From a virus (Duplodnaviria; Caudoviricetes), in IMG/VR virus record IMGVR_UViG_3300021256_004135, positions 1-64,000 of that record: DNA of 64,000 bases; one strand, given 5' to 3'. Shown piece after piece: positions 1,259 through 20,325 of this stretch. Positions within the stretch are counted from its first letter, which is position 1, and each line of letters starts with the position of its first letter. Under the pieces are notes generated by a model that made no database searches, was not told the DNA's origin, and saw nothing but the letters and a program-made list of their open reading frames with translations. The translations under genes were made by a program, and so were the position numbers.

Positions 1259-1264
1259 CAACTT

Positions 1265-3539: not shown

Positions 3540-4196
3540 TTAAATAATACTGGAGACATATTCGGACATGGGAGTCATCGCCTTGGACAGACTTCCGTAG
3601 AACTTTCCGTAGGCATCCATAGCAACATCAGGCACGATGAATTTCCTTATATCCGAGGCGGTATATTCCGTGCTGTTTAAGGGGGGCGTGACTGGCTGCA
3701 TGATAAGTTCCCTGACATTCCCCTTCGCAAAGCAGCCGTCACCAATCACCATGATGCCGCTCGGTATGATGACCTTCTCCAGCACCAACTGTTTGAAAGC
3801 CTCATCGGGAATCTCGGCATTAGGGATGATGAACGAGGGATCGTTGAAGAGGAAGTCCACATAGACGGTGCCTGCAGGGGCGGAGATACGGTTGCCGATC
3901 TCCGCCACCTCTCCATCGATGGCCACATACTGCACGCACGACACATCACCGCTGTAGACCACAGTATCTTCCGCCAGTCCTTCGGGGAATACCAACCGCA
4001 CCACATAGTCAGAGACGAAGAGGTAGTTGTTTGTCACCTCAGTGGTGTTGTTTATCACCGTTGTGCCACCGCCGCCAGAACCAGAGCCGCTGCCGGAGGT
4101 GAGACCCTGCACGGTAAGGCCGACATTGGCCATGATGCGGTCGAACTCCCTCGCGTTGGGGATGGGTGCAATCTGTTTGGATTGTATAGTTCTCAT
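3540..4196 (-). CDS. Virion-associated protein with short BspA-type LRR region
   Basis: Gly/Ser linker and EIPDEAF..LEKVIIPSGIMVIGDGCF motif. Confidence 0.5.
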   Translation of the reverse strand: MRTIQSKQIAPIPNAREFDRIMANVGLTVQGLTSGSGSGSGGGGTTVINNTTEVTNNYLFVSDYVVRLVFPEGLAEDTVVYSGDVSCVQYVAIDGEVAEIGNRISAPAGTVYVDFLFNDPSFIIPNAEIPDEAFKQLVLEKVIIPSGIMVIGDGCFAKGNVRELIMQPVTPPLNSTEYTASDIRKFIVPDVAMDAYGKFYGSLSKAMTPMSEYVSSII

Positions 4197-4281
4197 ATTT
4201 ATTGACTTTTTGTCTTGGTGAAAGACGGCGGTATCGCTCCGCCGCCCTCCTGGTTATGGTTGGTTAGTGTGGGAAGTTCGG

Positions 4282-5397: not shown

Positions 5398-5430
5398 ATC
5401 TCTTTGTCTTTTTACTGGTTAAACATCGGG

Positions 5431-6429: not shown

Positions 6430-6473
6430 CGTTTTTCAGAATTTGGTTATTGATTCGGTTAATTGACGTTGTT

Positions 6474-6815
6474 CTAATCATTTGTTATGTCGGCCAGCAC
6501 ATACACCTCGTCATCCTTGGAGAGGCCGTCGATGGCTATCCCCTGGCACTCACCCTCTCCGACTACTATCTCCTCGTAGTCATCCCCTCCGCCCCAGTAG
6601 CGCACACCGTTGATGAAGACCACGCTGCTGCCTGCCACGAACTTCTCGCGGCTGCGCCATTCACCACCGTCGCGGCTCTCCTCGGTGAGTACCGACTTGC
6701 CGCCGGCGGCTCCCACACGCTCGTCGACATACCGCTTCGTTGCGTAGTTGTTGAGCAGGGCGCGCACATCGCCCGACATTCTTCCTTTTCTTCCGCTTCC
6801 TATATTCAGTCCCAT
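6474..6815 (-). CDS. Hypothetical tail-region protein
   Basis: In-operon ORF with YATKRYVD and VFINGV motifs. Confidence 0.5.
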   Translation of the reverse strand: MGLNIGSGRKGRMSGDVRALLNNYATKRYVDERVGAAGGKSVLTEESRDGGEWRSREKFVAGSSVVFINGVRYWGGGDDYEEIVVGEGECQGIAIDGLSKDDEVYVLADITND

Positions 6816-6821
6816 AGCGCG

Positions 6822-7109
6822 TTAGAATTTAGGGTTTCCTGCTCCCCAGTAGACATCGTACTTGTCGAGCGGTATAGCGTCGGGGGCGAGTTCCATTATG
6901 GCCGCAGTCGTCCAGTCACCCACGGCAACTGGGAGGTCACTCATCTCCTTGTCGCACATGCAGCGGCAGCGGACGAGCATATCATCGGGGTACTCCACGC
7001 CCTCCTTCGGGCGTATATAAATGCTGAACGGATATTCAGTCTTGTAGCCTCTGGCGAGGCTCTCTATCCTTCCGTGGGATAGCACTCTGGTGTATTGGAA
7101 ATCTGCCAT
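6822..7109 (-). CDS. Hypothetical phage protein
   Basis: In-operon 95-aa ORF. Confidence 0.55.
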   Translation of the reverse strand: MADFQYTRVLSHGRIESLARGYKTEYPFSIYIRPKEGVEYPDDMLVRCRCMCDKEMSDLPVAVGDWTTAAIMELAPDAIPLDKYDVYWGAGNPKF

Positions 7110-7132
7110 ACTCTATATATTATATGTATTAT

Positions 7133-9475
7133 CTATTGTTTCGGTGTGACAACCAGCAATTCCGGCACTCCTATCGATGCCTGGCTTGCCACGCACATAC
7201 CCTCTCCAGTTCTCGGGTCTATGGTGCAGTGCTGCAAGCCCAACTCGTTGACAATAGGGTCGTTCTTCTGATTGATAAGAGACTTGCTCAACAAAGTGCT
7301 GCGGAGCTTGTTGAACTCCCCCTTGATGGTCAGGAACACCTCGTTGGCGGAATAGAGGCTGTTAATCATCTCGTTAATCTTGTTTCTGTCTGTGTTCTGC
7401 TTGCCAGTAAGGTCGTTGACCGTAGCCATAGACACCAGCCGCACGCCGCGTATGTCGGCATCCGCCTCCCTGATGATGCGCGACATCGGGCTGAACCGTG
7501 GAAAGATATGGGGATTGGGGCGCGGACGTGGCCGCACACGCATGGCCTCCACGGTCTCCGAGAGGTGCTTCGTCCAGTTGAATTTCAGCATCACAGCATT
7601 GGTGAGGGTGAGTTCGATGGAGCGGGGGTTGTTGAGGTACTGGCGGATGCCGGTGACACGCATCACAAGACCCTTGTAGCCGAAGAGCTGCACGTCAGTG
7701 ACCCTGATATGCTGGCCGAGGGAGAAGTATTCGGAGTGTTTGATATACAGAGGCTCGTACAGCTCGGTGTAGCGTTCCACATATTCATCCCACATCCGTT
7801 TTGCCCAGAGGCCGTCCACCGTGCCGTTGAAGGTGTAGTCCTCGCTGCCGTGGCGGTAGAGGTAATCTGTCATCTCTCTCAATGCTCGGTACTCCGCACC
7901 GTACTGGATGCCGCTGACATACTCCTCCGGCATAAGGCAATGGAACACCACATAGTGGTCGCCCACGGCAGGCACGAACAAGTCCTTGGGCATGATGATG
8001 CCGTCCTGGTCGGACTGGCAGAGCGGAATGCGCCACGCCTGCACAGGCTGGTTGTTGCTGTCGTAGAGGGTTTTGAGACTGACATTGGGATGCACGTTCT
8101 CACCCTCCCCCACGGTCTGTATCTCAAACTCCCTTCCCGCCAGCATCCCGTCCTGGAAGATGACCGTCATGGTCTCCCCAGGGGCGCAGAGGTTGGTGAG
8201 GTCGGGGCTGTCGATGTCGCAGATGTCGTAGTAGACCTCCGCACCGCTGTTTATCTGGCTCTGTGTGAGTTGCGTTCCGTTTGCACTGACCTGCAGGACA
8301 GCGTTCACGCCACCCACACGCATGGGGTATATCTCCGAAGCATCGAAAGCGGCCTCGACAGAGGTGCCGCGAGGGGAATAGTCGGGGTCGTAGTAGGTAT
8401 GTCTCACACGCTGGAGACTGTGGCCGTCATCGCTGGTTAGGAAGCAGGGCGTGGGAACCATCAGCAGATAGTCGAAGCGGTTGCCCTTGTCATCATACAA
8501 GACCTCATAGACATGCTCCCCAGTCTCCATTATCTGGTAGTCCTTGGCTTGGATATAGGTCTCGCCGTCGGCGGTTGTCCTGACGGTGGGGTTCTTGGAG
8601 AAGTAGAAAGCACCTCCGCTGTAGAAGCAGGCCACGCGCTTGGGGAGCAGCAGGGTCTGGCTGCGCTCGCCCTCATAGGTGGTGATGTCGTTCTCGGTGA
8701 CGGCGGTCTGGCCGTAGTGTTCGGGGATGTTCTGCTCGCCGCCGTGAATATAGAGGCGGTCGACGGGAGGCATGTCGCTGTCGTTGCGGCGCATGATGCC
8801 GCTGACGAAGCCGCCGCCCTTTCCATACCGCATCGGGAGCGGATGGTCGCGGTGGTACTCCACGCGGTGCAGAGCCACATAGTAGGTGTGCGTGCCGTCT
8901 GCCTCGACATCGGTCACTTCATACTCCGTCATAAAGGCATCGGCAACGGCTTTGACGGCATCCACGCAGTAGGCAAACTCATAGCATACCAGTTTCTTGT
9001 CGCCGTTATCGGCATAGCGGTTTCCGTCACGGCCTATGTAGGCTCCGTTGCTCTTCTGCTCCATGCCCTCGGTGTTGGCGTAGTCCACCTGCCAGGGGTT
9101 TCCGTCGCTGGCGGCGTTGAGGCAGTTGCAAACCATCTGGAGGTGTCCTCTGGCCGTCTCGGTGAAGGGGAACTTCAAGCGGTGGTCGGTGAGGTTGCGC
9201 ATCAAGGTGATATGCAGCAGATAGCCGATGGTGTACATCGTCATCACATAGTCATACTGACGCTCACTGACCTTGGTGACTTCGGGAGCGGCAAACAGTG
9301 TGTAACGCCGTCCGTCGAAGATGGTGTACGACTGGAGCGGCACGCTGACGCTCTGCTCCAGCGAGAAACGCACGGCCAGCAGGTCGAAGCCCATGAGCTG
9401 CGTGTCGCGGTAGCTGTCATCGTCCACCTCCACGGTGAGGAGAACCGTGCCATTGGGTCTGTACAAGGTCATCAT
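7133..9475 (-). CDS. Tail tip / baseplate hub (Tal-like) protein
   Basis: 780 aa, downstream of a Dit-like gene; LPMRYGKGGG, YIHGGEQNIP and IYP motifs of Bacteroidota phage tail proteins. Confidence 0.7.
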   Translation of the reverse strand: MMTLYRPNGTVLLTVEVDDDSYRDTQLMGFDLLAVRFSLEQSVSVPLQSYTIFDGRRYTLFAAPEVTKVSERQYDYVMTMYTIGYLLHITLMRNLTDHRLKFPFTETARGHLQMVCNCLNAASDGNPWQVDYANTEGMEQKSNGAYIGRDGNRYADNGDKKLVCYEFAYCVDAVKAVADAFMTEYEVTDVEADGTHTYYVALHRVEYHRDHPLPMRYGKGGGFVSGIMRRNDSDMPPVDRLYIHGGEQNIPEHYGQTAVTENDITTYEGERSQTLLLPKRVACFYSGGAFYFSKNPTVRTTADGETYIQAKDYQIMETGEHVYEVLYDDKGNRFDYLLMVPTPCFLTSDDGHSLQRVRHTYYDPDYSPRGTSVEAAFDASEIYPMRVGGVNAVLQVSANGTQLTQSQINSGAEVYYDICDIDSPDLTNLCAPGETMTVIFQDGMLAGREFEIQTVGEGENVHPNVSLKTLYDSNNQPVQAWRIPLCQSDQDGIIMPKDLFVPAVGDHYVVFHCLMPEEYVSGIQYGAEYRALREMTDYLYRHGSEDYTFNGTVDGLWAKRMWDEYVERYTELYEPLYIKHSEYFSLGQHIRVTDVQLFGYKGLVMRVTGIRQYLNNPRSIELTLTNAVMLKFNWTKHLSETVEAMRVRPRPRPNPHIFPRFSPMSRIIREADADIRGVRLVSMATVNDLTGKQNTDRNKINEMINSLYSANEVFLTIKGEFNKLRSTLLSKSLINQKNDPIVNELGLQHCTIDPRTGEGMCVASQASIGVPELLVVTPKQ

Positions 9476-9966
9476 TGTCCGCTGTTAAGTTGAGTCAGTA
9501 TGGAGAATTTCAAGTAGATGGCCTTATCTGTCATCAGAGCCTCCATGAGGTAGGTGGCACCCGTGACAAATCTGAACTCCCCAGCCACAGGCTGCATGAC
9601 CATGACGGGGGTGTTCTTGGTGTCGGAAACTATGACCCTCTCATTCGCAGCCTTGAAGATGACGGAAAAGCGTGCGAAAGGTATGTTGAAGCCTATCACG
9701 ATGGTGGAGACGCGGTCTACAGTGCTGTAGAGTATTCCGCTCTGGAAGAACTTGGCTGTCAGTTCAATCTTTCCGCCGCTGGCGGTGATGTCCATCTGGG
9801 CGTTGCAGGGCAGATAGAGTTCCGACAAGAGTTTGTCGCGCACCCTGTCGGGCGAGATCCTGCTCATCTTGCCGGTGGAGAGGTCGAAACCATACATCTC
9901 GAAGGACGTATTGCTCTGCGACGGCAGCGTGGAACCTTGTACCACTTCTATCTCTGTCAATGCCAT
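9472..9966 (-). CDS. Hypothetical tail-region protein
   Basis: In-operon ORF with ATGA coupling to the next gene. Confidence 0.55.
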   Translation of the reverse strand: MALTEIEVVQGSTLPSQSNTSFEMYGFDLSTGKMSRISPDRVRDKLLSELYLPCNAQMDITASGGKIELTAKFFQSGILYSTVDRVSTIVIGFNIPFARFSVIFKAANERVIVSDTKNTPVMVMQPVAGEFRFVTGATYLMEALMTDKAIYLKFSILTQLNSGQ

Positions 9967-9970
9967 AGTC

Positions 9971-10891
9971 TTATACGTTTATTGCCAAAGCTCTGTTATC
10001 CGAATCAACCAGTATCGCGCCGCTCTCCGTACCCAGCACACGCACCACGATTATCTCCTCCGCCGTGCCGTAGTTAAGCACGGTGAGAGTGACGCTAAAG
10101 TCGCACCAGACCTCGCCATTATCAGTTATACGGAAGGTCTTGATGCTGTTGCTCTTGTAGTGACAGCCAAAGGAATAGCCCATCGCCGTCAGCGTGCGCT
10201 CCTGCGGAAGGAGCAGCTCGGTGAAGAGGGCATCCCAATACGTCCAGAAGGTGCCGATGTTGGCGGTATGGAGATGAAGGTTAAGGGTGAGGTCGCGGCT
10301 CTTGACGCATACCGTTCCGCCCTCGTCATAGGTGCTGCCGGCGCTGTACTTGGAGTTACGGCGGAGCCGCTGGCGTATGTCTGCCCAACGACGGACGTTG
10401 GCCTCGGTGCCTTCCGTGACCCTGCACCCGAAACGAGCAAGGTCTATGTTGTCGAGGCGGTAGCCGTCGCTCTGCACGACATTGGCCGTTGGAGGCGTGA
10501 CGCTGCGTCTGATTATCTCGTCCTCCGCGAAGGTGAGCGTGGGGATGCCGTGCCGCATGTATAGGGAGAGGTTGCCGTTGCTGACAAGGCGCAGACGATA
10601 GGTCTTGGCGAGACGGGGGAAGTAAAAGTCGTGATAGACAGCGGACTTCAGCATCGCGAGGAAGGCATCCGCACTGGCTATATTCCTTATGTGGAACGAC
10701 AACTGAATCTGGCGGCTGTCGAGGACAGGTAGGTCAAGGTCTGCCTCCACGCCGTCATATTCCGCCCAGTCGTTGTAGGCCACGGCCTTCAACGGCGGCA
10801 TCTGCACCAATGCCTTGCCGCAGCCGTCCTGAAGGTACACCCCATAGGCGGTAAAGGCATCGGTATCATCTATTTTCATGCGTCCCTGCAT
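9971..10891 (-). CDS. Distal tail (Dit-like) protein
   Basis: Two similar halves, NDWAEYDGVEADL motif; first tail gene after the tape measure. Confidence 0.6.
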   Translation of the reverse strand: MQGRMKIDDTDAFTAYGVYLQDGCGKALVQMPPLKAVAYNDWAEYDGVEADLDLPVLDSRQIQLSFHIRNIASADAFLAMLKSAVYHDFYFPRLAKTYRLRLVSNGNLSLYMRHGIPTLTFAEDEIIRRSVTPPTANVVQSDGYRLDNIDLARFGCRVTEGTEANVRRWADIRQRLRRNSKYSAGSTYDEGGTVCVKSRDLTLNLHLHTANIGTFWTYWDALFTELLLPQERTLTAMGYSFGCHYKSNSIKTFRITDNGEVWCDFSVTLTVLNYGTAEEIIVVRVLGTESGAILVDSDNRALAINV

Positions 10892-10912
10892 CGTGCGGAA
10901 GAAATTTCACGA

Positions 10913-10991
10913 TGCAAAAGTACGCACTATTTTCAAGGTATAAAGCCTTTTGAATCAGCGCGTTTTGGATGATTTTCCATCATCCAAAAGA
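10913..10991 (-). promoter_or_regulatory. Putative late promoter/operator element, copy 1
   Basis: Minus-strand TACTTTTG plus inverted repeat TTTTGGATGA-N7-TCATCCAAAA; closely similar to 26315-26393. Confidence 0.7.
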
Positions 10992-11019
10992 TTGTAAAAA
11001 AAGGGTGTAAAAAGATAGG

Positions 11020-11727
11020 CTATGAGAGGTATTCCATCCACAGCCTCTTATTCTCTTTCCAGAACTTATCGGGCGAGAATCCAGGGGCTGGCCTATACAT
11101 GGTATCAGTTATCTTGATGTCAGTCAGCATATTCAAAGGCCATATCTTTTCTATACGATAGTTTGTATGACCCAGAACATACCAGACGTAATCCTTCAAA
11201 ACCAAGCCCCTCGGCTCAAAATGCTCTTGAAAATATGGAAATCTGTTCTTCGGGTCATGGTAGTATAAATCAACACACTTCTGCTGGCGGATGGCATCCA
11301 TCAGGATATTCACATTCTCCACTCCAGTGGACTTGCAATCGATGTACATATACTTCTTGTCCTCTTCCGAATCCTGAAACTGCCTCATTGCCGCCGATGC
11401 CTCAAAAGCCATAAGGAACGGCATTGTCCAAGGATTGCTATCGCTCTTCGGTTCTTCCACCAAACGGTAACGATACCTTCTGTTTTCTTCCGACAATGCT
11501 TTCTTTCCAACCTCGTGCTGCAGGCGGCTATCGCACTCTATTTTGATGCCAAATCTGTCGCGGAGTTCTTTCAGATAGTTATGGAATGTCCTTTTGGGCA
11601 GAATCTTCTCCATATTCGGCTCATCGACAAGTTTGTCTATCAATTGGTCGAATGTGATGCCAGTCTCTCCGGCTCTGCGGAACTGTGCAACCAGCCAAGA
11701 AAGCATTTCCAAATTTTTGTAGTCCAT
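11020..11727 (-). CDS. WYL-domain transcriptional regulator
   Basis: N-terminal wHTH (LPKRTFHNYLKELRDRFGIKI) and a WYL domain (AIRQQKCVDLYY, EPRGL...WYVLG). Confidence 0.8.
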   Translation of the reverse strand: MDYKNLEMLSWLVAQFRRAGETGITFDQLIDKLVDEPNMEKILPKRTFHNYLKELRDRFGIKIECDSRLQHEVGKKALSEENRRYRYRLVEEPKSDSNPWTMPFLMAFEASAAMRQFQDSEEDKKYMYIDCKSTGVENVNILMDAIRQQKCVDLYYHDPKNRFPYFQEHFEPRGLVLKDYVWYVLGHTNYRIEKIWPLNMLTDIKITDTMYRPAPGFSPDKFWKENKRLWMEYLS

Positions 11728-11922
11728 CTGATGTTTTTTTTCTCCGTGCAAAGGTACAAAAAATAATTTGTATGCAAAATAAATGTCACACAAGTGTTAA
11801 AGTACCAGACCATAAAATATTTATAAATCAACAATCTAACCACCTTCAAAAAAGATAATAAAAAGACCTCTTCGTATTACTAATGTAGAGCTCTCCCAAA
11901 ATAACATCAAAAAATAAACAAT

Positions 11923-13548
11923 ATGAAAACCGACAAAAAACAAATTTCAGAGCCTACAACCAACAACAAGGTGGAGGCGAAAAACAACAGTCAGTCGCCG
12001 AAGATTCCACCAACTCCCATTCCCATCGAGTTGGCTGACGTAGTGAAGAACGAGAATGAGTATCTGGAGTATCTCGTCTGGAAGGGAGCGGACGACCGCT
12101 ATGGGTATGATATAGGTGAGGAGATAAAAAGTCGAATCACTTATGAACTCAATGTGATTAAGAAAAAGGGTGTTGCAGGATATTTCCTGATGTTTTGGAA
12201 CATCGTCAGAGCTGCTCGTGAGGAACTGGGCGTGCTTGTGGGACCAGGAAGAGGACGCACACCTGGCTCCATCGTGGCTTACTGTCTACGCATCACCGAC
12301 ATTGACCCGATACGATATGGATTGCTTTTTGAGCGTTTCTATAGCACTCAGAGCAAGGGGCTTCCAGACATAGCCATAGACGTTGAAAGCGAAGGCAGGC
12401 AGAAAGTAATCACATGGTTAAAAAAATATTATGGCGAGAAATGCGTTGCACATATCATTACCCAAGGAACAACAGGCTTAAAGTATACTATGGCAGACTT
12501 ACAGCGAATGGAGAGGATGCCTATCGAAATGTACAACGCCCGTCAACGGTATATTCCAGAAAATGAACGGCACATTGGCATCGGTGCGATTAGTATTATC
12601 ATTGCGCCTGAAGACATTAGCAACATAGTGCCTGTATTCGAGGTATTTGACAAATCGAGCGGAGAGAAACTGCGCGCCATCGCAAATGATGACAGTGCTA
12701 TTAAGGATGCCGGACTTGTAAGAATAGGACTACTTGGGCTTAACGTGCTGTCTGTTATAAAGAGTTGTGTGTCCAGGATCAAGAAAACCACAGGCAAGGA
12801 AATCGATATGAAAGCCATTCCTCTCGATGACGAAGCCACCTTAAAAATCTTCAACGAAGGGAATACTATCGGCGTATTTCTGTTTGAGAGTACGGGTATG
12901 CGTATGAAACTGCGCAAATTGAGGTCACTGTCTTTCAAAGACCTTGTTGCCGCCGAAGCCCTCTATCGGCCAGGAACAATGGGTTTATTCGGAAAATTTA
13001 TAGACAGAATAAACAGAGAGGAAGATATAACATACCTCTTGCCGGAAATGGAGCAATGCCTGGGAAGTACCTACGGCCTAACTATCTATCAAGAGCAAAT
13101 CATCCAATTAAGCCAGATATTGGCCGGTTTCACCCCAGGTGAGAGTGCTGTTTTAATCAGAGCAATCTGCCTCAGAAAAAAGGACATTCTCGACTGGTTG
13201 GAAATACAATTCATGGATGGGGGAATGAAGAAAGGACATCCCAAAGATATCCTTGAACAGATATGGAACCAATGGAAAACGGAAGGGTGTAAAATATTCT
13301 ATAAAAGCCACTCAACATGTTACACAATGATGGCATTCCAGACAGCATACCTCAAGGCACACTATCCGGCAGAATTTATGGAAATATTGATAAACCAAGC
13401 CCGAGACGATGAAGCCCGAATGAATGAACTGATAGCTGATTGCCAAGCCAACGGACTTGTCGTAGAGGATGAGACTGCCAAGGTTAAGATTGGAGATGGC
13501 ATTGTTGTAAATATTGATAGAAAGAAGGTCAGAAATGCAAACCAATAA
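11923..13548 (+). CDS. Truncated DnaE-like (Pol III alpha) protein, predicted catalytically inactive
   Basis: VGPGRG, ITDIDP..YGLLFERF, GVFLFESTGM, LYRPG, YQEQ and KSHSTCY...YLKAHYPAEF motifs; PDIAID and GLVRIGLLGL replace PDxDxD and GLxKxDxLGL; no PHP or OB domain. Confidence 0.85.
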   Translation: MKTDKKQISEPTTNNKVEAKNNSQSPKIPPTPIPIELADVVKNENEYLEYLVWKGADDRYGYDIGEEIKSRITYELNVIKKKGVAGYFLMFWNIVRAAREELGVLVGPGRGRTPGSIVAYCLRITDIDPIRYGLLFERFYSTQSKGLPDIAIDVESEGRQKVITWLKKYYGEKCVAHIITQGTTGLKYTMADLQRMERMPIEMYNARQRYIPENERHIGIGAISIIIAPEDISNIVPVFEVFDKSSGEKLRAIANDDSAIKDAGLVRIGLLGLNVLSVIKSCVSRIKKTTGKEIDMKAIPLDDEATLKIFNEGNTIGVFLFESTGMRMKLRKLRSLSFKDLVAAEALYRPGTMGLFGKFIDRINREEDITYLLPEMEQCLGSTYGLTIYQEQIIQLSQILAGFTPGESAVLIRAICLRKKDILDWLEIQFMDGGMKKGHPKDILEQIWNQWKTEGCKIFYKSHSTCYTMMAFQTAYLKAHYPAEFMEILINQARDDEARMNELIADCQANGLVVEDETAKVKIGDGIVVNIDRKKVRNANQ

Positions 13549-13715
13549 AGACAACGAACTTGGTGTCATGTGTAAAATAAATGTAATGCAAAAGTTAATA
13601 TACCCGTGCGGAATTTTCACTCAAAACACTAACTGACAACTAATTGCATTTTTGATAAAAAGTTCTTGTTGGAAGTCATTCGTATTATATAAGCAGATAG
13701 TAATTGCAACACGGT

Positions 13716-14246
13716 ATGAAAACGACAAAGGAAAACACCCAGAAGAAGAGCCTCGACGAGGCCATCGCCAACGCCGCCAATGCGTGCAAAGTTATCTGCG
13801 CCATCAATGCCCGCTTCGCCCAGAATGGCCTCCCCATGCTCGTGATGAGCGACACCCACGGTATGACGGGAGAGAAAGGCAACCGCACCCTCTGTATCGA
13901 CAGCGACGACCTGGCTCTCCTCAACGCCATCAGTATGCGCGAGGCATTGCAAGTCGCTGACTTGGCTGTCAAAATCAAGCAGCGCGGCAACAATCCCTAC
14001 CCTCCTATCAATGTAATTCTCAGCGGCGACACCCGCAGGGGAATGTATTGGGCAAATCTGCTGGATGAGCTGCTGGCCCTCCACCTCAAGAGCCTGCCGT
14101 TCTCCTCGCTCTACCGCGGCAAGCACTATGATGGCAAGGGTCTCTTCATCATCGCCTCCGACCTGCCGGTGGCCGAGCTGAAAAGGGGCTTCCCGAAACT
14201 GTACTCTGATGTCATACTCCTGGAGGAAACACCTTCGGGAGTATGA
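13716..14246 (+). CDS. Hypothetical protein
   Basis: 176-aa ORF with GC-rich codon bias. Confidence 0.6.
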   Translation: MKTTKENTQKKSLDEAIANAANACKVICAINARFAQNGLPMLVMSDTHGMTGEKGNRTLCIDSDDLALLNAISMREALQVADLAVKIKQRGNNPYPPINVILSGDTRRGMYWANLLDELLALHLKSLPFSSLYRGKHYDGKGLFIIASDLPVAELKRGFPKLYSDVILLEETPSGV

Positions 14247-14321: not shown

Positions 14322-15047
14322 ATGAATATTACAAACAAAAAAGGAACAATTTTAAGAGATTTAGAGTCTTGGAGAAAAGGTTTTATCGAAGTTGACACAG
14401 AATTACATTGGCAAAAAGGATATAGTGCATATTCATTGGCCGAATTTATACTTAATCATAATGGATTGCATCTAATTAACAACCTGTTGCAAGAAGTATC
14501 TGACAAAAAGTATAACATAAGTTCCGCAATAAAGGCATGTATAGAGCATGAATCGAAGTTTGACAATTATAGACGGGGACGAATGCAGGATCTTGCCATT
14601 TTTGGAGAAAACGGAACTTTCTTTATTGGCGTTGAAGCAAAGGTAGATGAAACATTTGGTGGCACAATACAAGAGGCATACAATGACGGCGTAAAAGAAA
14701 AGGAAGAAAATCCTAATAGTAAAAAGACACAAAGAGTTCTTGAACTCGTAAAAAAATACTACAACCAGAACGACATAACAGAAGAAATCGGTAAGTATCG
14801 ATATCAGTTACTTCATTACCTCGCCGGTTCGATGGCTGAGAATTACAAACTTGTTCTTATGCCAGTAATCGTTTTTCATACCAAAGAATGCCCAATTGTC
14901 AATGGACCAAACAACAAACAGGACTATATTAACTTTATGAAGAGTCTGAATTTCAAAGAGTCGCATACAAAAGATGGTTATATGGCGTTTTACAACAATA
15001 TTGATGGCATAGAGATATACTCTTTCTACATAGAAATAGATTTATAA
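14322..15047 (+). CDS. PD-(D/E)XK-superfamily nuclease-like protein (DUF6946-like)
   Basis: EH...QDLAI...VEAKVDETFG and RYQLL motifs; own promoter TATTTTTG at 14289; AT-rich. Confidence 0.6.
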   Translation: MNITNKKGTILRDLESWRKGFIEVDTELHWQKGYSAYSLAEFILNHNGLHLINNLLQEVSDKKYNISSAIKACIEHESKFDNYRRGRMQDLAIFGENGTFFIGVEAKVDETFGGTIQEAYNDGVKEKEENPNSKKTQRVLELVKKYYNQNDITEEIGKYRYQLLHYLAGSMAENYKLVLMPVIVFHTKECPIVNGPNNKQDYINFMKSLNFKESHTKDGYMAFYNNIDGIEIYSFYIEIDL

Positions 15048-15049
15048 TT

Positions 15050-15649
15050 TTGACGATTCTCCACCTATCCGACACTCACGGCAAACATAGAGAACTCACC
15101 AATATGCCCTACGCTGACATACTGGTGCATAGCGGCGATTTCACTATGGCTGGCGGTGATATGGAAGCCCTTGACTTCATAGAATGGCTCTGTGATTTAC
15201 CCTACAAGCACAAAATTTTCATTGCCGGCAACCATGATGATTGTATGCTGGATGCCACGTTGGAAGGTCTGCCGAATGATGTGCATTATCTTTCCGATAG
15301 TGGTATCACCATTGACGGTATATCATTCTACGGAACTCCTATGTTTGTCACATTTGAGGGTGAGGATTTGAAAGAAATAGAACATTACGAACAAATACCA
15401 GACAACATTGATATTCTGATAACCCATCGTCCTCCTCTCGGCATTCTGGACAGTATCGATGACAAACTGCACTACGGCAGTTCCATTCTACTGGATAAGG
15501 TCTCTAAAATCAAACCCAAGATGCACCTATTCGGACACGTTCATGCCGCATACGGGACAATTGACTGGAAAGGAATAACATTCAGCAATGCTGGTGTTAC
15601 AGATTGGAAGTATGATGTTCGGTACGCCCCAAGGTTGCTGACATACTAA
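15050..15649 (+). CDS. Calcineurin-like metallophosphoesterase
   Basis: SDTH, HSGDFT, AGNHD, THRPP and FGHVH motifs. Confidence 0.9.
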   Translation: MTILHLSDTHGKHRELTNMPYADILVHSGDFTMAGGDMEALDFIEWLCDLPYKHKIFIAGNHDDCMLDATLEGLPNDVHYLSDSGITIDGISFYGTPMFVTFEGEDLKEIEHYEQIPDNIDILITHRPPLGILDSIDDKLHYGSSILLDKVSKIKPKMHLFGHVHAAYGTIDWKGITFSNAGVTDWKYDVRYAPRLLTY

Positions 15650-15861
15650 AAAGAGGCAGTCAACTCGTGACCGCCTCGCTTCACATTAAAAAATAGGGTT
15701 TATGAAAAACCTTTATGTATAAAAAAACGTAACTGTTCCAATATTATTGTATCTCGAAAACCAGGAAAAAAAGCGGCACCCTGAAAAAGAGTGCCGTTTC
15801 TTGTTTGTGATATTGTAACTTCCGGTGACATAATTACGCGATATTACCCGTTTTATTGTGT

Positions 15862-18800
15862 TCACGACGACCTCAACTGCATACCTCTCGACTGCATATC
15901 CCTCATAATGTTCTTGATGACGTGTAACTCCTCGGTGTTCGTCTCTATACGCTGCACGCTACCGTATATGGCCGCCACAGTCTGCTGTATGATGATGGTG
16001 TTGTCACGGATGGAAGCCGTATCCTCCTGAATGGCCGTGGCGCGGCCTCCGAGGTCGTCGATGCTCTCCTGCGAGGCTTGCGCGAAACCCCTCGACGAGG
16101 CCGTGCGGTCTCTGGCGGAATCCTCCAACCCAATACCGGCAGCATTTAGTTGATTTAGTAGACTCTGATACAACTCCTTTGCACCATCAATCTGCGTTCT
16201 CAATCCATCCGCAAGACCCACAAAAGCCTCGTTAGTCCAGATATAGTTTCCAAATTCATCCTGGTCAAGTCCAGCATTGGCGGCATAGTCCTGGAGATAC
16301 TTATTAAGCCTCTGCATCAACGGCTGCACAAACACGGTCTGCGTGACCATGTTACGAATCATATCATCAATACTCTCATTGATTTTATCGATGGCCGCCT
16401 CGAAATTGGTTCCAAACTTCTTGAAGATGTCAAGCCACGTATTCACAATACTTTGGAAGTCGGAGCCTGCCAGACTCTCAAACATATTCCTCAAAGAATC
16501 CGTCATCTGGTATTCTATCTCGCGGATATTACGAAGAGCCTCCGCCGCCTTTTCCTCGTCACCGGCCAGAAGACTTGCAAGATACTCGGCTTCATAGATA
16601 TTCTTGTTAATCTGTAGAGCTTGGTTGTTGAGATTGAATAGGTTTGTACTGTCGAATGAGTTATCCCAATAGGCTTCCTCAAACTCCTTTTTCAAAGCCT
16701 CCAGCCTTTCATACTGATTCTGCACGTATCCAGCAATAGCCCATCCTATACCGTTGGCAATGGAATAATCCATATTGCTTCTGGTGAAGTCCGAGTGAGA
16801 CACCGAGTCCCCGATAGCCTGTAAAGCAGCATCAAAAATGGTGTTGAAAATCCTTGCGCTGATATGCGGTATGTCCGTTCCGAACATAAAGTTACCAGTG
16901 CCACCGGCATCGTTGTACATCATTTCCCTAAGTCTCATGGCCGCTGCCGTGTAGTACATCTGCCATTCATAAGGCAAGGCTGCCGGATTGTTTGTGTACA
17001 ACGCTCCCCACATACCATTTCCCTCCGGCGTTATTCCGTAGCCGTTTCGGTTCATCGCGTCTCTCCAAGCCCACGCGCTTCGGGTCGTGTTGAACCTATT
17101 TTCGTCAAGGGTGTTGAAGAACTCCAGCATAGCCGAAGCGTAGTTTTTGTAGTCGAGACCCGTAATGGTGCCTGCCATCGACTTGACACTCGCGTTGATA
17201 CTATTGATGCCAGACAGTATGTCGGACATATATGAGATAGATTCTTCCACACGGGCTTGATATTCCGCCTCTTTCTGCGCTTCGCTCTTGAAAATGGAAG
17301 TCAGCACCCCTTGGCCGATGCCCAGCACCGCACCGATGAGTGCGCCCCATCCGCCTCCTATCTGCGCACCGGCGGCTGCATAGCCTCCGGCGGTACTGAT
17401 GGTGTCGGCGATGCTCTGGAAGGTATCGGCCATCTTCTCCAGATGGGCGTTGTTGGTAGCCTCCGCGAACTCCCTCATGGCACTGGCAAGTCCGCTGGCC
17501 AGAGACGAAATTTTCTGTAGGCCGTTCAAGAGAAACTCCACGCCCTGCTCCACGGTCTCCTTGCTATCGCCACTGAAAGCGTCCTTGAAGGCATCCTTTA
17601 GCGTGTAACCGCCCTTGCCCATCTGCTGTATCTCACGCTTGACCTTGCGGACATTCTCGATGAACTGGCGAAACTCCGCCTCGGTGGTATTGCTGTCGCC
17701 ATACTCGTTTCGGAACTCCTCCAAGGTCATCTTCTCCATCTGACGGAGCTTCTCGATGGCTATCTTGACATTGGCGTAGGTCTGCTCGGCAAAGACATCG
17801 CCGATAGAGTTTTCGATGAACTCACGCTGTATGTTCCTCATACTCTCGGAATACTGGCGTTCCAGTTCCTTGAGGGCGGCTTGCATGGCTTTTTTCTTCT
17901 TGGGGTCTGTCTCCACCATCATGGCGGACTGCAACTCCCTGCGTTTCTGCTCGCTCTCCTCGGTGAGTTCCGTGACCTTCTGCTGGTATCCGGCATAGTC
18001 GCCTATGAGTTCGGCGTAGAGTTCCTTCATCTTGGCGCGGTACGCCTCATCGAAGAGCGCGAGCTGATCCTGCGTAGCTCCCTTCTCCTCCAGCACCTTG
18101 CGGTCTTCCTGATAGCGGCGTTCAAGATTGAGACGCTGCGACAGAAAGGACTGGCTCTGACCTATGGCCTCGCGCATGGCCTCGGCCTCCTGCTGTCGCC
18201 ACTTGGCATCGGCGTTATCGCGGATGGTCTGCATCTCGTTGTATATCTCCACCATACCCTCTCGGTACGCTTCCAGTTCCTCGGTGGAGAGACCACTGTT
18301 CTCATCCACGGTCTTGTCGGCGGCGTAGGGGTTGGCCTTCTCGTCCTGGTCTGGATGCGCAGCAGCCCATTCCTTGGCTTTGAGTCCCTTCCACTTGCGC
18401 TCCTTCTCTTTCTCCTGCTCGTCAATCTGCGCCACCTCTTTCTCGTGATTGAGTTTGAGCTGCCGCAGGGTCTTTTTCAAGCCGTCCGCCATCGCGTCGA
18501 TACTTATCTGCTCGATGTCCCACTGGGTCTGCTGCTCCATTCTCGCCGTGGCCTCGCGGTAGGCAGCCAGTGCTTTGAGGTATTCCTTCTTCAACCGCTC
18601 GCATTCGGCCTCGTACTTCTCCAGCCGTTTGAGGTCGTCATTGTCGGGGGCTTCCTCGATATTGGCCCCTTTGAGTATCTCGGCGGCTTTCTTGGCGGCA
18701 TCGGACTGCTTCTCAATGAGGTCGTTGAGTTTCTTTTCAGCCTCCTTGTACGCTTCCTCGTCTGCCTGGTAACGCCGTTTCGCCTCGTCGAATGCCCTCA

Positions 18801-20325
18801 CGCTGAACGGCGTATGCAGCGCGTCGTAGTCCTGATAGCCGGGGGTGTTCCTGTTGGCCTCCAAGTCGTCGTACATGAACTGCTGGGCGGAGTTGTATCT
18901 GGTGGCGGCCTCGTCATAAGCCTCCTTGGCCTTGACATACTCCTTGGCGGCTTTCATGATGTCCTCGTCGAGAGAGGCGGCAATGGCGCGCTGCACCTGC
19001 GCGCTGACAAAGGCATCGGTGTTCTTGACAAGGAGGTTCTCCGCATCCGCCACGCTGTGGATGGACACGCCCAGGTCGTCGAAGGCTTTCTTGTTCTTCT
19101 CGATAAACTTCTTCTTCTCCTCCAGGGAGTCCCCTATCTTGTTCCACTGGTTCTGGAGCTTCTTTATCCCGGCCACGGGCGCGCTGCCCAGTTCGCCGAC
19201 CTTCTCCTTGAACTCCTCCACGGCTTTCTTCGCCTCCTCGATTTTCTCTTTCTGCTCTTTCTGTCTCCGCACAAAGATGCCTATGATGCTCACGGCTGCG
19301 GTGGCTGCTGTGAGGATGAGTCCGAGGGGGTTGGCGCGCAACGCCGCCCACAACGCCCTGACGCTCACCGTGGCGGTGGTCGCACCCATGGAGACACCGA
19401 TGAAGGCGGTCTTGAGTTTCGACAGCATAAGCATGAAGGCGGAGTTCTTCTGGAGCGTCCGCATCACGGTCTGGAGTCCCATCATGGCGGCGATGCAGCC
19501 CTGCACCTTGGTCTGCACCTTCTGGAGGTCTTCGCTCGCCGTACCGAAGATAGCCAAGGCACCCTGCACCGCGCTGAACCCTCCCACCAGTCCTTGCAGA
19601 CCCGACACAGCACCCTGCAAGCCAGCGGTGTTGGTGGCCAACAGTTGGGTCTCCTTGTTGACCTCGTTGATGGTCATGCCAAGGTCACGGGCTTTGGCTT
19701 GCAGTTCCTTGTAGGCATCGGAGCCTTTGACGGCGGCCACGGCCATCTCGCCGCCCTGCTCCCTCGCGGACAGTATCATCTGCTGCATCTCGCCTCTGAC
19801 CTGCATCAGTTGGGTGCGCAGCCGTGTGTGGGTGTTGCCTGCCTCCTCCGCGCTGTGGGTGATGTTCTTGAACTTGCCGTCCTGATCCTGCAAGGTGCGT
19901 GTGACTTCGGCAATCTCCTTGCCCACGTCCTTGTACATCCCTATCATGCCGCCCAGTTCACGCTGCCACTCTTTGAGTTCCATTGACTTGGCATCGTTGC
20001 CCGACATGAATGCCTGCGCCGCAGCGTGGCCGAGTTTATCGTATTCCTTTTGGAGCGTCCTGATAGCCTCCTGGTTGGCGTTGGCAAGCGGCTCGACCAT
20101 AGCCCACGCCGTCTCTATATCCTTGCCCACGGCGGCAATCTGCTCTCCCATCTTGCCCAGTTTGCCGCCAGACATCTTGGTCATGCTGTCCAGCCTCTCG
20201 CCCGATTGCTGCACGCTCTCCGTCAGGGCCAGCACGCCGCTCTGCGCACGGTCGAGACCGGCGTAGAACTCTTTCTCGTCGAGGCCGAGTCGGATGTAAA
20301 TGTCTCCGCTGTTGTCGTTGTCCAT
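15862..20325 (-). CDS. Tape measure protein
   Basis: 1487 aa, helical/coiled coil, ANPLGLIL motif; follows the tail chaperones. Confidence 0.88.
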   Translation of the reverse strand: MDNDNSGDIYIRLGLDEKEFYAGLDRAQSGVLALTESVQQSGERLDSMTKMSGGKLGKMGEQIAAVGKDIETAWAMVEPLANANQEAIRTLQKEYDKLGHAAAQAFMSGNDAKSMELKEWQRELGGMIGMYKDVGKEIAEVTRTLQDQDGKFKNITHSAEEAGNTHTRLRTQLMQVRGEMQQMILSAREQGGEMAVAAVKGSDAYKELQAKARDLGMTINEVNKETQLLATNTAGLQGAVSGLQGLVGGFSAVQGALAIFGTASEDLQKVQTKVQGCIAAMMGLQTVMRTLQKNSAFMLMLSKLKTAFIGVSMGATTATVSVRALWAALRANPLGLILTAATAAVSIIGIFVRRQKEQKEKIEEAKKAVEEFKEKVGELGSAPVAGIKKLQNQWNKIGDSLEEKKKFIEKNKKAFDDLGVSIHSVADAENLLVKNTDAFVSAQVQRAIAASLDEDIMKAAKEYVKAKEAYDEAATRYNSAQQFMYDDLEANRNTPGYQDYDALHTPFSVRAFDEAKRRYQADEEAYKEAEKKLNDLIEKQSDAAKKAAEILKGANIEEAPDNDDLKRLEKYEAECERLKKEYLKALAAYREATARMEQQTQWDIEQISIDAMADGLKKTLRQLKLNHEKEVAQIDEQEKEKERKWKGLKAKEWAAAHPDQDEKANPYAADKTVDENSGLSTEELEAYREGMVEIYNEMQTIRDNADAKWRQQEAEAMREAIGQSQSFLSQRLNLERRYQEDRKVLEEKGATQDQLALFDEAYRAKMKELYAELIGDYAGYQQKVTELTEESEQKRRELQSAMMVETDPKKKKAMQAALKELERQYSESMRNIQREFIENSIGDVFAEQTYANVKIAIEKLRQMEKMTLEEFRNEYGDSNTTEAEFRQFIENVRKVKREIQQMGKGGYTLKDAFKDAFSGDSKETVEQGVEFLLNGLQKISSLASGLASAMREFAEATNNAHLEKMADTFQSIADTISTAGGYAAAGAQIGGGWGALIGAVLGIGQGVLTSIFKSEAQKEAEYQARVEESISYMSDILSGINSINASVKSMAGTITGLDYKNYASAMLEFFNTLDENRFNTTRSAWAWRDAMNRNGYGITPEGNGMWGALYTNNPAALPYEWQMYYTAAAMRLREMMYNDAGGTGNFMFGTDIPHISARIFNTIFDAALQAIGDSVSHSDFTRSNMDYSIANGIGWAIAGYVQNQYERLEALKKEFEEAYWDNSFDSTNLFNLNNQALQINKNIYEAEYLASLLAGDEEKAAEALRNIREIEYQMTDSLRNMFESLAGSDFQSIVNTWLDIFKKFGTNFEAAIDKINESIDDMIRNMVTQTVFVQPLMQRLNKYLQDYAANAGLDQDEFGNYIWTNEAFVGLADGLRTQIDGAKELYQSLLNQLNAAGIGLEDSARDRTASSRGFAQASQESIDDLGGRATAIQEDTASIRDNTIIIQQTVAAIYGSVQRIETNTEELHVIKNIMRDMQSRGMQLRSS

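What the first reader, a model, noticed from the sequence alone, without database searches (positions are those of the whole stretch)
11923..13548. DnaE pseudo-polymerase: intact 541-codon ORF missing two of three catalytic aspartates
Seen: PDIAID and GLVRIGLLGL where active DnaE has PDFDVD and GLVKFDFLGL (E. coli D401, D403, D555), so the D401 and D555 equivalents are Ala and Gly. GRGS is GRGR, the HAGG motif is lost, much of the thumb appears deleted in frame, and the PHP, OB and C-terminal domains are absent. The palm/fingers scaffold is kept with no stop or frameshift. Inference: selection for a non-catalytic role (decoy, dominant-negative inhibitor or DNA binder) rather than random decay.
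Basis: partly seen in the sequence, partly recalled or inferred. Interest (0 to 1): 0.8.

Follow-up and report, generated by a model that had tools for sequence, protein, structure and literature searches.

The report
Selected dead mini-DnaE in WYL cassette
This prophage gene is a shrunken copy of the bacterial replicative DNA polymerase that can almost certainly no longer copy DNA, yet natural selection keeps it intact and it always travels with a WYL-type regulator, nucleases and a phosphoesterase in mobile, defence-like gene cassettes of rumen Bacteroidales, a combination I found described in no paper.

Summary
The ORF at 11923..13548 (+) encodes 541 aa with a confidently folded DnaE palm and fingers. 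It has no PHP, HhH, OB or C-terminal domains and only a disordered thumb stub. Two of the three catalytic aspartates are replaced (A151, G269), along with GRGS and HACG.

It is not a pseudogene:
- About 55 cluster representatives keep the same losses and open frames.
- dN/dS is 0.20-0.32 (p about 2e-21).
- The old active-site sheet is the most relaxed region.

It derives from a Bacteroidales DnaE paralogue. Its ~885-aa sister forms keep PHP and all catalytic motifs, and host MAGs carry a normal dnaE as well.

The gene heads a modular cassette: divergent WYL regulator, DnaE-like slot, a 176-aa unknown protein, a nuclease slot, and a PDC-S10 metallophosphoesterase. The cassette occurs in this prophage's tail module and at several chromosomal sites. 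Two other lineages (at most 46% identity), dead through different substitutions, have homologous partners.

I infer a non-catalytic binding subunit (sensor, decoy or scaffold) of a defence-like system. That function is not shown.

The scan has noted similar dead mini-DnaE genes before on other DNA. I found no published description.

The parts
11020..11727 (-). WYL-domain regulator of 235 aa, transcribed divergently from the DnaE-like gene. The ORF as listed runs on to a TTG at 11793, but the conserved start is MDYKN at 11727.
   Evidence: Pfam WYL E 3e-7. PADLOC WYL E 7e-12. Present next to the DnaE-like gene in every cassette examined. The start was set from alignments A3 and A7.
11728..11922 (.). 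Divergent control region. It holds a minus-strand TACCTTTG (Bacteroidetes -7 type box) at 11749..11756, 22 nt upstream of the WYL start. It also holds a near-palindrome TGTATG-N12-CACACA at 11769..11792, which is a candidate operator.
   Evidence: The block is conserved even in the most divergent cassettes L005, L029 and L030. The box was located. The pattern count itself is not above chance, and the repeat finder reported no inverted repeat, so the operator assignment is inference.
11923..13548 (+). Dead mini-DnaE of 541 aa. Disordered N-tail 1-22; N-palm 23-180 (nt 11989..12462); thumb stub 181-215 (12463..12567); C-palm 216-275 (12568..12747); fingers 276-510 (12748..13452); beta-hairpin tail 511-541 (13453..13545).
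   Evidence: AF2 pLDDT 85.8 and pTM 0.84. Foldseek TM about 0.8 to 2hpi, 7pu7 and 5lew. dN/dS 0.20-0.32.
12373..12375 (+). Codon for A151, at the position of the first catalytic aspartate (E. coli D401, Taq D463).
   Evidence: Ala in all ~55 clade representatives.
12727..12729 (+). Codon for G269, at the position of the third catalytic aspartate (E. coli D555, Taq D618).
   Evidence: In the clade it is G (46), N (6), K (1) or R (1), and never D.
13716..14246 (+). P176, a 176-aa protein of no known family that recurs with the 541-, 476- and 885-aa forms.
   Evidence: Alignments A2 and A5. 60 relatives, none with a Pfam domain. AF2 pLDDT 82. Only weak AAA+/P-loop-like resemblance, Z 6-7. In the 476-aa cassettes it lies 13 nt upstream of the DnaE-like gene.
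14322..15047 (+). DUF6946 protein, probably PD-(D/E)XK nuclease-like, occupying the variable nuclease slot.
   Evidence: Pfam DUF6946 E 1e-21 and PDDEXK_4 E 0.003. The slot holds a 354-aa gene plus a beta-CASP/MBL gene in L001, L004 and L009, and REase-ARP in L005.
15050..15649 (+). Calcineurin-like metallophosphoesterase, the conserved last gene of the cassette.
   Evidence: Pfam Metallophos. PADLOC PDC-S10 E 8e-73. 83-97% identical across cassettes. 46% identical in the distant L038 cassette.

Best explanation
The ORF encodes a pseudo-polymerase: a domain-reduced paralogue of Bacteroidales DnaE (palm plus fingers only) that selection maintains and that has lost its polymerase chemistry. It is the first structural gene of a mobile cassette controlled by a divergent WYL regulator, which also carries P176, a nuclease-type gene and a PDC-S10 metallophosphoesterase. 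The cassette sits here as cargo between the tail and tape-measure genes of a rumen Bacteroidales prophage.

Shown:
- The losses are real.
- The fold is intact.
- Purifying selection acts on the gene.
- It descends from a ~885-aa sister form with intact catalytic motifs.
- The cassette recurs at several genomic sites.
- Other dead mini-DnaE lineages have homologous partners.

Inferred:
- The protein works by binding, not by catalysis. It would be a sensor, decoy or scaffold subunit that couples an infection or DNA-damage cue to the cassette's nuclease and phosphoesterase effectors.
- The system serves phage-host conflict (defence or superinfection exclusion) under WYL-mediated repression.

I put about 0.85 on 'selected non-catalytic mini-DnaE that belongs to this cassette'. 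I put about 0.3 on the specific sensor/decoy-of-a-defence-system mechanism.
For: 1. Catalytic loss is fixed. A151 is present in all ~55 clade representatives. Position 269 is G, N, K or R and never D. HACG and the GRGS serine are also replaced, while most other DnaE-invariant residues are kept.
2. Selection is evident. Pairwise dN/dS is 0.20-0.32 with dS up to 0.45 across five independent DNA copies without stops. There are 104 non-synonymous against 101 synonymous differences over 1274 and 349 sites, p 2e-21. The region holding the former active-site strands is the most relaxed (0.34-0.45). N-palm (0.13-0.22), fingers (0.18-0.25) and the C-tail (0.03-0.30) are constrained.
3. The fold is intact: pLDDT 85.8, pTM 0.84, TM about 0.8 to solved DnaE structures.
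4. Origin is clear. The 541-, 476- and ~885-aa forms make one clade (support 100) among Bacteroidales DnaE. The ~885-aa forms keep PHP, PDIDxDF, HACG and KxDFLGL, and they share the N-terminal peptide and C-tail with the 541-aa form.
5. It is an accessory gene. Host MAGs carry a full dnaE as well, and only 4 of 261 species genomes of that family carry the dead form.
6. The cassette is conserved. WYL, DnaE-like, P176, a nuclease slot and Metallophos occur together in the prophage tail slot (window, L004, L031-33) and at four or more other sites (L001/L010, L005, L029, L030). Recombination breakpoints lie 36 nt into the ORF and just upstream of P176.
7. Convergence is seen. P0155 (598 aa; DIIID, KMN) sits with WYL/WCX, MBL and a PDC-S10 phosphoesterase. 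P0181 (510 aa; SIQFD, EIY) sits with a PDC-S26 PD-(D/E)XK nuclease and WYL/WCX. Metallophos, MBL and WYL are homologous across these cassettes.
8. The setting is defence-like: PDC-S10 and PDC-S26 matches, a mad3/mad8-like neighbour in L001, HepT/MNT next to L005, and a methylase and resolvase next to L029.
Against: - No functional data exist. Expression, loss of activity, protein-protein contacts and any anti-phage effect are untested.
- PADLOC has no model that matches any DnaE-like form.
- PDC-S10 and PDC-S26 are only candidate systems, and both are defined as single genes. The neighbours could therefore be independent cargo in a hotspot that happens to share a regulator.
- P176 is missing from the L038 and L040 cassettes, so not every partner is core.
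- Sister forms with intact catalytic motifs occupy the same slot. The ancestral job may therefore have needed polymerase or PHP chemistry, and the dead form may do something different.
- No ligand or target for a sensor or decoy role is identified.
Confidence: 0.6

Rival explanations
1. It is a decaying relic. The ORF would be an in-frame-deleted pseudogene of the ~885-aa cassette polymerase that has not yet acquired stops.
For: The protein has lost three domains and its catalytic residues. The 541 lineage has a long stem (0.6) on the tree. The active-site sheet is relaxed (omega 0.34-0.45).
Against: dN/dS is 0.20-0.32 with p 2e-21. About 55 clusters and six independent DNA copies (window, L001, L009-L011, G016), diverged to dS about 0.4, all have open frames of constant length. 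The core is confidently folded. Other lineages show convergent dead forms.
Confidence: 0.04
2. It is still an enzyme. The reduced palm would catalyse some nucleotidyl transfer, such as untemplated synthesis or signal-nucleotide formation, using D153 plus non-canonical ligands, as Pol-beta-fold nucleotidyltransferases do.
For: The C-family palm is a Pol-beta-like fold (established knowledge). D153, R110, R349, K461 and H463 near the nucleotide pocket are retained. Sister forms keep full catalytic motifs. The phosphoesterases in the cassette could process a nucleotide product.
Against: Two of the three metal-binding carboxylates are replaced by Ala and Gly. Position 269 varies freely among G, N, K and R, which is not the behaviour of a catalytic residue. 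The sheet that carries these residues is the least constrained part of the protein. In E. coli DnaE, mutating these aspartates abolishes activity (established knowledge).
Confidence: 0.08
3. It is a dominant-negative replication poison. When the WYL repressor is released, the dead polymerase would compete with host or phage Pol III at primer ends and stall replication, giving abortive infection.
For: It is a dead copy of an essential enzyme under a dedicated regulator, and WYL regulators of the BrxR/CapW/DriD type respond to DNA damage or ssDNA (established knowledge).
Against: Every known replisome-docking element is absent: the internal beta-clamp motif and HhH domain, the OB fold, the tau-binding CTD, and the PHP surface that binds epsilon. 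The thumb that grips duplex DNA is reduced to a disordered stub. Competition at primer ends would therefore be weak.
Confidence: 0.08
4. It is an independent passenger. The mini-DnaE would be one of several unrelated cargo genes in a recombination hotspot, functionally unconnected to P176, the nuclease and the phosphoesterase.
For: The cassette is mosaic, with slots swapped independently. PDC-S10 and PDC-S26 are defined as single-gene candidates. The content between the DnaE-like gene and Metallophos varies widely.
Against: The pairing of DnaE-like, WYL and nuclease/phosphoesterase genes survives divergence to 38-46% identity in the DnaE-like gene and 46% in Metallophos. It also survives relocation to at least five genomic sites. 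The gene order is kept, with the DnaE-like gene directly beside the WYL promoter region.
Confidence: 0.15
5. It is a maintenance or replication factor of a mobile element. The mini-DnaE would serve the propagation of the island or prophage, for example by origin or primer recognition, and not defence.
For: It has replicase ancestry. It occurs on a prophage and next to a resolvase in L029. Earlier scan notes place similar genes on tRNA-integrated islands (unchecked).
Against: In this prophage it lies in a low-GC cargo island inside the tail module, not in a replication module. The chromosomal copies in L001, L005 and L030 have no integrase or replication genes within the cassette. The dead forms cannot synthesise DNA.
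Confidence: 0.05

Closest known systems
DnaE1-type DNA polymerase III alpha subunit (C-family replicase; Taq 2hpi/3e0d, E. coli 2hnh/5fkw, M. tuberculosis 5lew/7pu7)
   Same: The palm and fingers are homologous: 42-53% identity to Bacteroidales DnaE segments, TM about 0.8 to solved structures, and most invariant non-catalytic residues kept.
   Different: There is no PHP, HhH/beta-binding domain, OB fold or CTD, and the thumb is reduced to a stub. Two of the three catalytic Asp residues and two further active-site motifs are replaced. The gene is accessory, patchily distributed, and carried on a mobile cassette. The 2026 survey of bacterial polymerases lists only PolC and DnaE1-3, calls PHP universal in the family, and describes no inactive C-family group (PMC12926913).
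ImuB, the catalytically dead Y-family polymerase of the ImuA'-ImuB-DnaE2 mutasome
   Same: It is a polymerase paralogue that lost its catalytic carboxylates yet is conserved and works as a non-enzymatic adaptor in a damage-inducible gene cassette (established knowledge; summarised in PMC12926913).
   Different: ImuB has a different fold (Y-family). It keeps a clamp-binding motif and has a defined role in translesion synthesis. No ImuA, RecA or PolY partner is present here.
BrxR/CapW-type WYL regulators heading defence islands
   Same: A WYL protein is transcribed divergently from, or beside, a variable block of nuclease-type genes on mobile DNA. The relatives in L038 and L040 carry WYL plus WCX domains.
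   Different: None of the regulated genes belongs to a validated defence system. The 235-aa regulator here gives only a WYL hit, and its HTH and WCX were not demonstrated.
PADLOC candidates PDC-S10 (metallophosphoesterase) and PDC-S26 (PD-(D/E)XK)
   Same: The window's last cassette gene matches PDC-S10 (E 8e-73). The nuclease beside the dead DnaE P0181 matches PDC-S26 (E 3e-41).
   Different: Both are catalogued as single-gene candidates without a DnaE-like partner, and neither is experimentally validated to my knowledge.
Non-canonical prokaryotic PolX proteins that lack polymerase activity (PMC9226535)
   Same: They are a precedent for a bacterial polymerase family with members that have lost synthesis and are kept for another role.
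   Different: Those proteins keep an active PHP exonuclease, which supplies the function. Here the PHP domain is deleted.

Membership tests
C-family DNA polymerase (DnaE-type Pol III alpha) | Homologous palm and fingers domains | tested here: met
   Pfam PF07733 E 1e-49 and PF17657 E 7e-46. PDB phmmer E 3e-78. Foldseek TM about 0.8.
C-family DNA polymerase (DnaE-type Pol III alpha) | Three catalytic aspartates (E. coli D401, D403, D555) | tested here: not met
   The equivalent residues are A151, D153 and G269. The substitutions are fixed across the clade.
C-family DNA polymerase (DnaE-type Pol III alpha) | N-terminal PHP domain | tested here: not met
   There is no PF02811 hit in the protein or anywhere in the 103.6-kb record. 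Sister ~885-aa forms do have it.
C-family DNA polymerase (DnaE-type Pol III alpha) | Thumb, beta-binding/HhH, OB and tau-binding C-terminal domains | tested here: not met
   The thumb stub is 36 residues and disordered. The protein ends after the first hairpin of the beta-binding domain. NCBIfam scores are far below every equivalog cut-off.
Pseudogene | Frame disruption, or dN/dS near 1 | tested here: not met
   No stops occur in six independent copies. dN/dS is 0.20-0.32 with p 2e-21.
BrxR/CapW-like WYL-regulated defence island | WYL-domain regulator adjacent to the cargo operon, with a conserved control region | tested here: met
   The regulator is present in all cassettes.
BrxR/CapW-like WYL-regulated defence island | wHTH-WYL-WCX architecture of the regulator | tested here: inconclusive
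   Only the WYL domain is detected in the window's 235-aa protein. WCX is detected in the L038 and L040 regulators.
BrxR/CapW-like WYL-regulated defence island | Cargo confers phage resistance | not testable with these tools
   This needs plaque or efficiency-of-plating assays.
PADLOC PDC-S10 candidate | Match to the PDC-S10 profile (applies to the neighbouring gene at 15050..15649, not to the DnaE-like ORF) | tested here: met
   E 8e-73. The L038 homologue gives E 2e-67.
ImuB-like dead-polymerase adaptor of a mutasome | Co-occurrence with ImuA/RecA-like and DnaE2 genes, plus a clamp-binding motif | tested here: not met
   No such genes occur in any cassette. The C-terminal region that carries the clamp motif in DnaE is absent.

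The most novel reading that the evidence does not exclude
Mini-DnaE pseudo-polymerases would be the sensing subunits of a widespread, undescribed family of WYL-regulated anti-phage systems in gut and rumen Bacteroidales (and possibly Clostridia). A stripped-down, catalytically dead mimic of the host replicase core would act as bait for a phage factor or replication intermediate that normally engages DnaE. Engagement would release the linked nuclease and metallophosphoesterase effectors. If so, PDC-S10 and PDC-S26 are parts of multi-gene systems and not single-gene ones.
Probability: 0.2. Interest if true: 0.9.

Novelty: new variant of a known kind. Interest (0 to 1): 0.72.

Why it matters
Catalytically dead polymerase paralogues that act as adaptors are known for the Y family (ImuB). 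None is described for the C family, whose members are treated as active replicases that always carry PHP (PMC12926913). Here the C-family core has been miniaturised and inactivated, and other lineages have done the same through different substitutions. Each time it stays under selection and stays linked to a WYL regulator plus nuclease or phosphoesterase genes on mobile DNA. That points to an unrecognised non-enzymatic use of the replicase fold, probably in phage-host conflict. It also gives a concrete five-gene cassette, small enough to clone, on which the idea can be tested. Finally, it suggests that two PADLOC single-gene candidates (PDC-S10, PDC-S26) have unnoticed partners.

Tried and rejected
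No binding test was made.
- Scans of viral contigs with the 541-aa and 476-aa proteins found no relative. The scan with the 890-aa form found only ordinary compact phage DnaE polymerases at 33-35% identity. These are more distant than host DnaE and do not belong to this clade.
- PADLOC has no model that matches any DnaE-like form.
- P176 remains unassigned. Foldseek against the PDB gave nothing below E 0.02. VIA-align gave only Z 6-7 to AAA+/P-loop cores, which is within the range of common arrangements. A profile search against PDB sequences gave nothing. The ESM Atlas had no usable hit. No host paralogue was found in three MAGs. I therefore do not assign it a fold family.
- I tested the 'island of mimics of essential proteins' lead from an earlier scan note. 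L004's 111-aa gene gives consistent but non-significant GyrA/ParC matches (Pfam E 0.008; PDB E 0.2-1.3). The 113-aa gene gives nothing meaningful. The lead is unproven.
- Promoter and operator search: TANNTTTG is not over-represented, and no inverted repeat passed the repeat finder. Only the cross-cassette conservation of the block supports a control element.
- Six full-text literature searches found no description of a dead or PHP-less C-family protein or of this cassette.
- The pseudogene reading is rejected on dN/dS and recurrence.
Full report
OBSERVATION

The ORF at 11923..13548 (+) exists as described: 541 codons with no internal stop. Pfam detects only the C-family palm (DNA_pol3_alpha, residues 46-213) and fingers (DNA_pol3_finger, 276-437). 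All NCBIfam DnaE equivalogs score far below their cut-offs, because only about 500-800 of their roughly 1100 positions are matched.

In the residue-level alignment to Taq Pol III alpha:
- LPDIAID faces MPDIDTD.
- GLVRIGLLGL faces GLLKMDFLGL.
- GPGRGR faces GPGRGS.
- GIGAIS faces SVHAAG.

The equivalents of E. coli D401 and D555 are therefore A151 and G269, and D153 (D403) is kept. The thumb is cut to a 36-residue stub, whereas full-length DnaE has 74-101 residues there. About 400 N-terminal and 370 C-terminal residues of a Bacteroidales DnaE have no counterpart. The 103.6-kb provirus record holds no PHP domain and no second C-family fragment that could complement the ORF.

AlphaFold2 gives a confident model (pLDDT 85.8, pTM 0.84). 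Only residues 1-22, the thumb stub (182-215) and the last 16 residues are disordered. The model superposes on solved DnaE structures at TM about 0.8.

NOT A SINGLETON AND NOT DECAYING

The protein database holds about 55 90%-identity clusters of 541-545 aa at 82-100% identity. DNA copies occur in four species-level rumen Bacteroidetes MAGs and in several metagenome contigs.

Across all representatives the first aspartate is Ala. The third is G (46), N (6), K or R, and never D. HACG is GAIS or DANR, and the GRGS serine is R, Y, H or C. The fingers motifs YRPGTM, QEQII and KSHS are kept.

Pairwise Nei-Gojobori dN/dS among five independent copies is 0.20-0.32, with dS up to 0.45. For window against L001 there are 104 non-synonymous and 101 synonymous differences over 1274 and 349 sites (Fisher p about 2e-21).

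Constraint is uneven in an informative way:

| Region (residues) | dN/dS |
|---|---|
| N-palm (23-180) | 0.13-0.22 |
| C-palm with the former active-site strands (216-275) | 0.34-0.45 |
| Fingers (276-510) | 0.18-0.25 |
| Clade-specific C-tail (511-541) | 0.03-0.30 |

This is the pattern expected of a protein kept for its fold and surfaces after catalysis was given up.

ORIGIN

Two sister groups are closer to the query than any ordinary DnaE, which is at most 45% identical:
- An ~885-aa group (P0056-P0064, 48-53% identity).
- A 476-aa group (P0066-P0072, about 49%).

The ~885-aa proteins have PHP, palm, a full thumb and fingers, with PDIDxDF, HACG and KxDFLGL all intact. They lack HhH, OB and CTD. 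They share the query's N-terminal peptide (MKTD.K.ISEP) and its unusual C-terminal hairpin tail. The 476-aa proteins lack PHP and the whole thumb but keep the three aspartates. A 747-aa variant (P0065) has PHP but no thumb.

In a maximum-likelihood tree the three forms make one clade (support 100, stem 0.8) nested among Bacteroidales DnaE. The 541 and 476 lineages sit on long stems (0.6 and 1.0), and the ~885-aa forms sit on short ones. The tree leaves the order of events as a polytomy. The different deletion boundaries argue for separate reductions.

Host MAGs carry a normal full-length dnaE (open frames of 1309-1341 aa) in addition to the dead copy. Only 4 of 261 species genomes in that family have the dead form.

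GENOMIC SETTING

The ORF lies in a low-GC (41-49%) island between a phage tail protein (9971..10891, phrog_6305) and the tape-measure gene (15862..20325). Both of those are on the opposite strand, in a 53-59% GC structural module.

The island contains five genes:

| Coordinates | Gene | Evidence |
|---|---|---|
| 11020..11727 (-) | WYL regulator | |
| 11923..13548 (+) | Dead DnaE | |
| 13716..14246 (+) | P176, unknown | |
| 14322..15047 (+) | DUF6946 / PD-(D/E)XK-like | |
| 15050..15649 (+) | Metallophosphoesterase, PADLOC PDC-S10 (E 8e-73) | |

The same architecture recurs with every form of the DnaE-like gene:
- In the same prophage slot (L004, L031-33).
- Beside secA and a mad3/mad8-like ATPase (L001, L002, L010).
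- Beside a HepT/MNT pair (L005, L006).
- Beside a methylase and resolvase (L029).
- Beside queuosine genes (L030).

The nuclease slot varies. It holds DUF6946 here, a 354-aa gene plus a beta-CASP/RNase J-like MBL hydrolase elsewhere, or REase-ARP. WYL, P176 and Metallophos are homologous throughout.

The cassette is mosaic. Window 3917-11958 is 96.5% identical to L004, and that stretch includes the first 36 nt of the ORF. Identity then falls to 66-69%, and it returns to 97% at 13569, just upstream of P176. So the DnaE-like gene occupies a slot exchanged by recombination. In L004 that slot also carries a WG-repeat gene and a 113-aa gene.

The divergent intergenic region holds a block conserved in all cassettes. 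It includes a minus-strand TACCTTTG 22 nt upstream of the WYL start, and a TGTATG-N12-CATACA palindrome that is one mismatch off in the window.

CONVERGENCE IN OTHER LINEAGES

Among the best 150 hits in the 50%-identity representative library there are further compact DnaE-like clusters without a thumb, often without PHP, and some with substituted carboxylates. Examples:
- P0155: DIIID, KMN.
- P0181: SIQFD, EIY.
- P0252, P0261 and P0210.

These are complete genes inside contigs.
- P0155 lies between a WYL/WCX regulator and a 320-aa gene, an MBL hydrolase and a PDC-S10 phosphoesterase.
- P0181 lies between a 200-aa gene and a PDC-S26 PD-(D/E)XK nuclease plus a WYL/WCX regulator.

Across these cassettes Metallophos is 46% identical, MBL 28%, and the WYL proteins 22-26%, while the DnaE-like genes are 38-45% identical to the window's. 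The 113-aa partner also recurs next to a thumbless 724-aa form (L044).

Repeated loss of catalytic residues by different substitutions, with retention of the fold and the same partners, is the strongest argument that polymerase chemistry is dispensable for what these proteins do in the cassette.

MECHANISM

Shown: a selected, folded palm-fingers protein lacking two metal ligands, tied to a WYL regulator and nuclease or phosphoesterase genes on mobile DNA.

Inferred: it acts by binding. Everything that docks DnaE to the replisome is gone (clamp motif and HhH, tau-binding CTD, PHP-epsilon surface). So is everything that grips DNA (thumb, HhH, OB). This makes a dominant-negative replisome poison or a duplex-DNA sensor less attractive. 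The active-site sheet is the least constrained part, which argues against a conserved nucleotide pocket.

I therefore favour a protein-level role as bait or scaffold that links a cue to the effectors, with operon expression gated by the WYL regulator. Regulators of this class (BrxR, CapW, DriD, PafBC) respond to DNA damage or ssDNA, by established knowledge.

This mechanism is a hypothesis, and I give it about 0.3. That the ORF is a functional non-catalytic member of this cassette I hold at about 0.85.

COMPARISON WITH WHAT IS KNOWN

By descent it belongs to the C-family. It fails the family's defining functional features: three carboxylates, PHP, thumb and C-terminal domains.

The 2026 survey of bacterial polymerases recognises only PolC and DnaE1-3. 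It calls PHP universally present, discarded truncated sequences, and lists inactive homologues only for the Y family and for exonuclease domains (PMC12926913).

The nearest functional analogy is ImuB, the dead Y-family polymerase adaptor of the mutasome, but no mutasome partners are present here. The setting resembles BrxR-type WYL-headed defence islands. Six full-text searches found no description of the protein or the cassette.

EARLIER NOTES OF THIS SCAN

A first-reader note covers this same stretch as a candidate WYL, dead DnaE, nuclease and phosphoesterase system (e1-5885035). A word search returned 38 notes in at least 34 other genomes about dead mini-DnaE genes. Several place them beside WYL regulators, nucleases or a phosphoesterase in Bacteroidales or Clostridia islands (for example e1-5224881 and e1-4251402).

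These are unchecked AI notes. They agree with what I found independently in L038 and L040, but they are not independent evidence. One note (e1-4079431) proposes islands of mimics of several essential proteins. My test of that idea here was inconclusive.

VERDICT

The gene is a conserved pseudo-polymerase of the C family within a recurrent, mobile, WYL-regulated cassette. Its job is unknown, and a binding role in phage-host conflict is the best current guess.

Noticed in passing
L004:12723-13058 (also L029:12725-13060 and L030:4851-5186; the gene is absent from the window): The 111-aa cassette gene gives repeated weak matches to one segment of GyrA/ParC (Pfam DNA_topoisoIV E 0.008; PDB ParC/GyrA E 0.2-1.3). 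It may be a second miniaturised fragment of an essential DNA enzyme in the same operon, but the matches are not significant.
   Followed up: partly
L038:5938-6903 and L038:7001-8797: The WYL/WCX regulator and the neighbouring dead DnaE (P0155) share a 22-residue stretch at 86% identity (blastp E 2e-6). This may be a recombination or duplication scar at the gene junction.
   Followed up: no
window 1185-1259: A tRNA-Asn (GTT) gene lies near the left end of the window. It is a possible attachment site or boundary of the provirus.
   Followed up: no
window 26000-48000: This long stretch has lower GC (44-49%) than the 53-59% GC structural module at 1-26 kb. The provirus record may include a second module of different origin, or host flank.
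   Followed up: no
L004:16289-17208 against window 15650-15861: L004 carries an extra rhodanese gene and a lipocalin-like gene between the phosphoesterase and the tape-measure gene. The window lacks them, so this is a third independently variable slot in the same prophage hotspot.
   Followed up: partly
L004:10666-11616, L031:11663-12613, L029:8582-9004, L030:1462-1758: WG-repeat (PF14903) genes accompany only the PHP-containing DnaE-like forms. In L004 and L031 the gene overlaps the polymerase stop codon by 8 nt, which suggests translational coupling. These genes are absent from the 541-aa and 476-aa cassettes.
   Followed up: partly
L001:836-3199: The 787-aa ATPase upstream of the chromosomal cassette matches both mad3 (E 4e-62) and mad8 (E 5e-27) of the MADS defence system, as an apparent fusion.
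   Followed up: no
L040:8544-9662: The PD-(D/E)XK nuclease directly downstream of the dead DnaE P0181 matches the PADLOC single-gene candidate PDC-S26 (E 3e-41). PDC-S26, like PDC-S10, may therefore have an unrecognised mini-DnaE partner in some lineages.
   Followed up: partly
window 11728-11793: The mechanical ORF call for the WYL gene (257 aa, TTG start) over-extends by 22 codons into the promoter block. The conserved start is MDYKN, giving 235 aa.
   Followed up: yes
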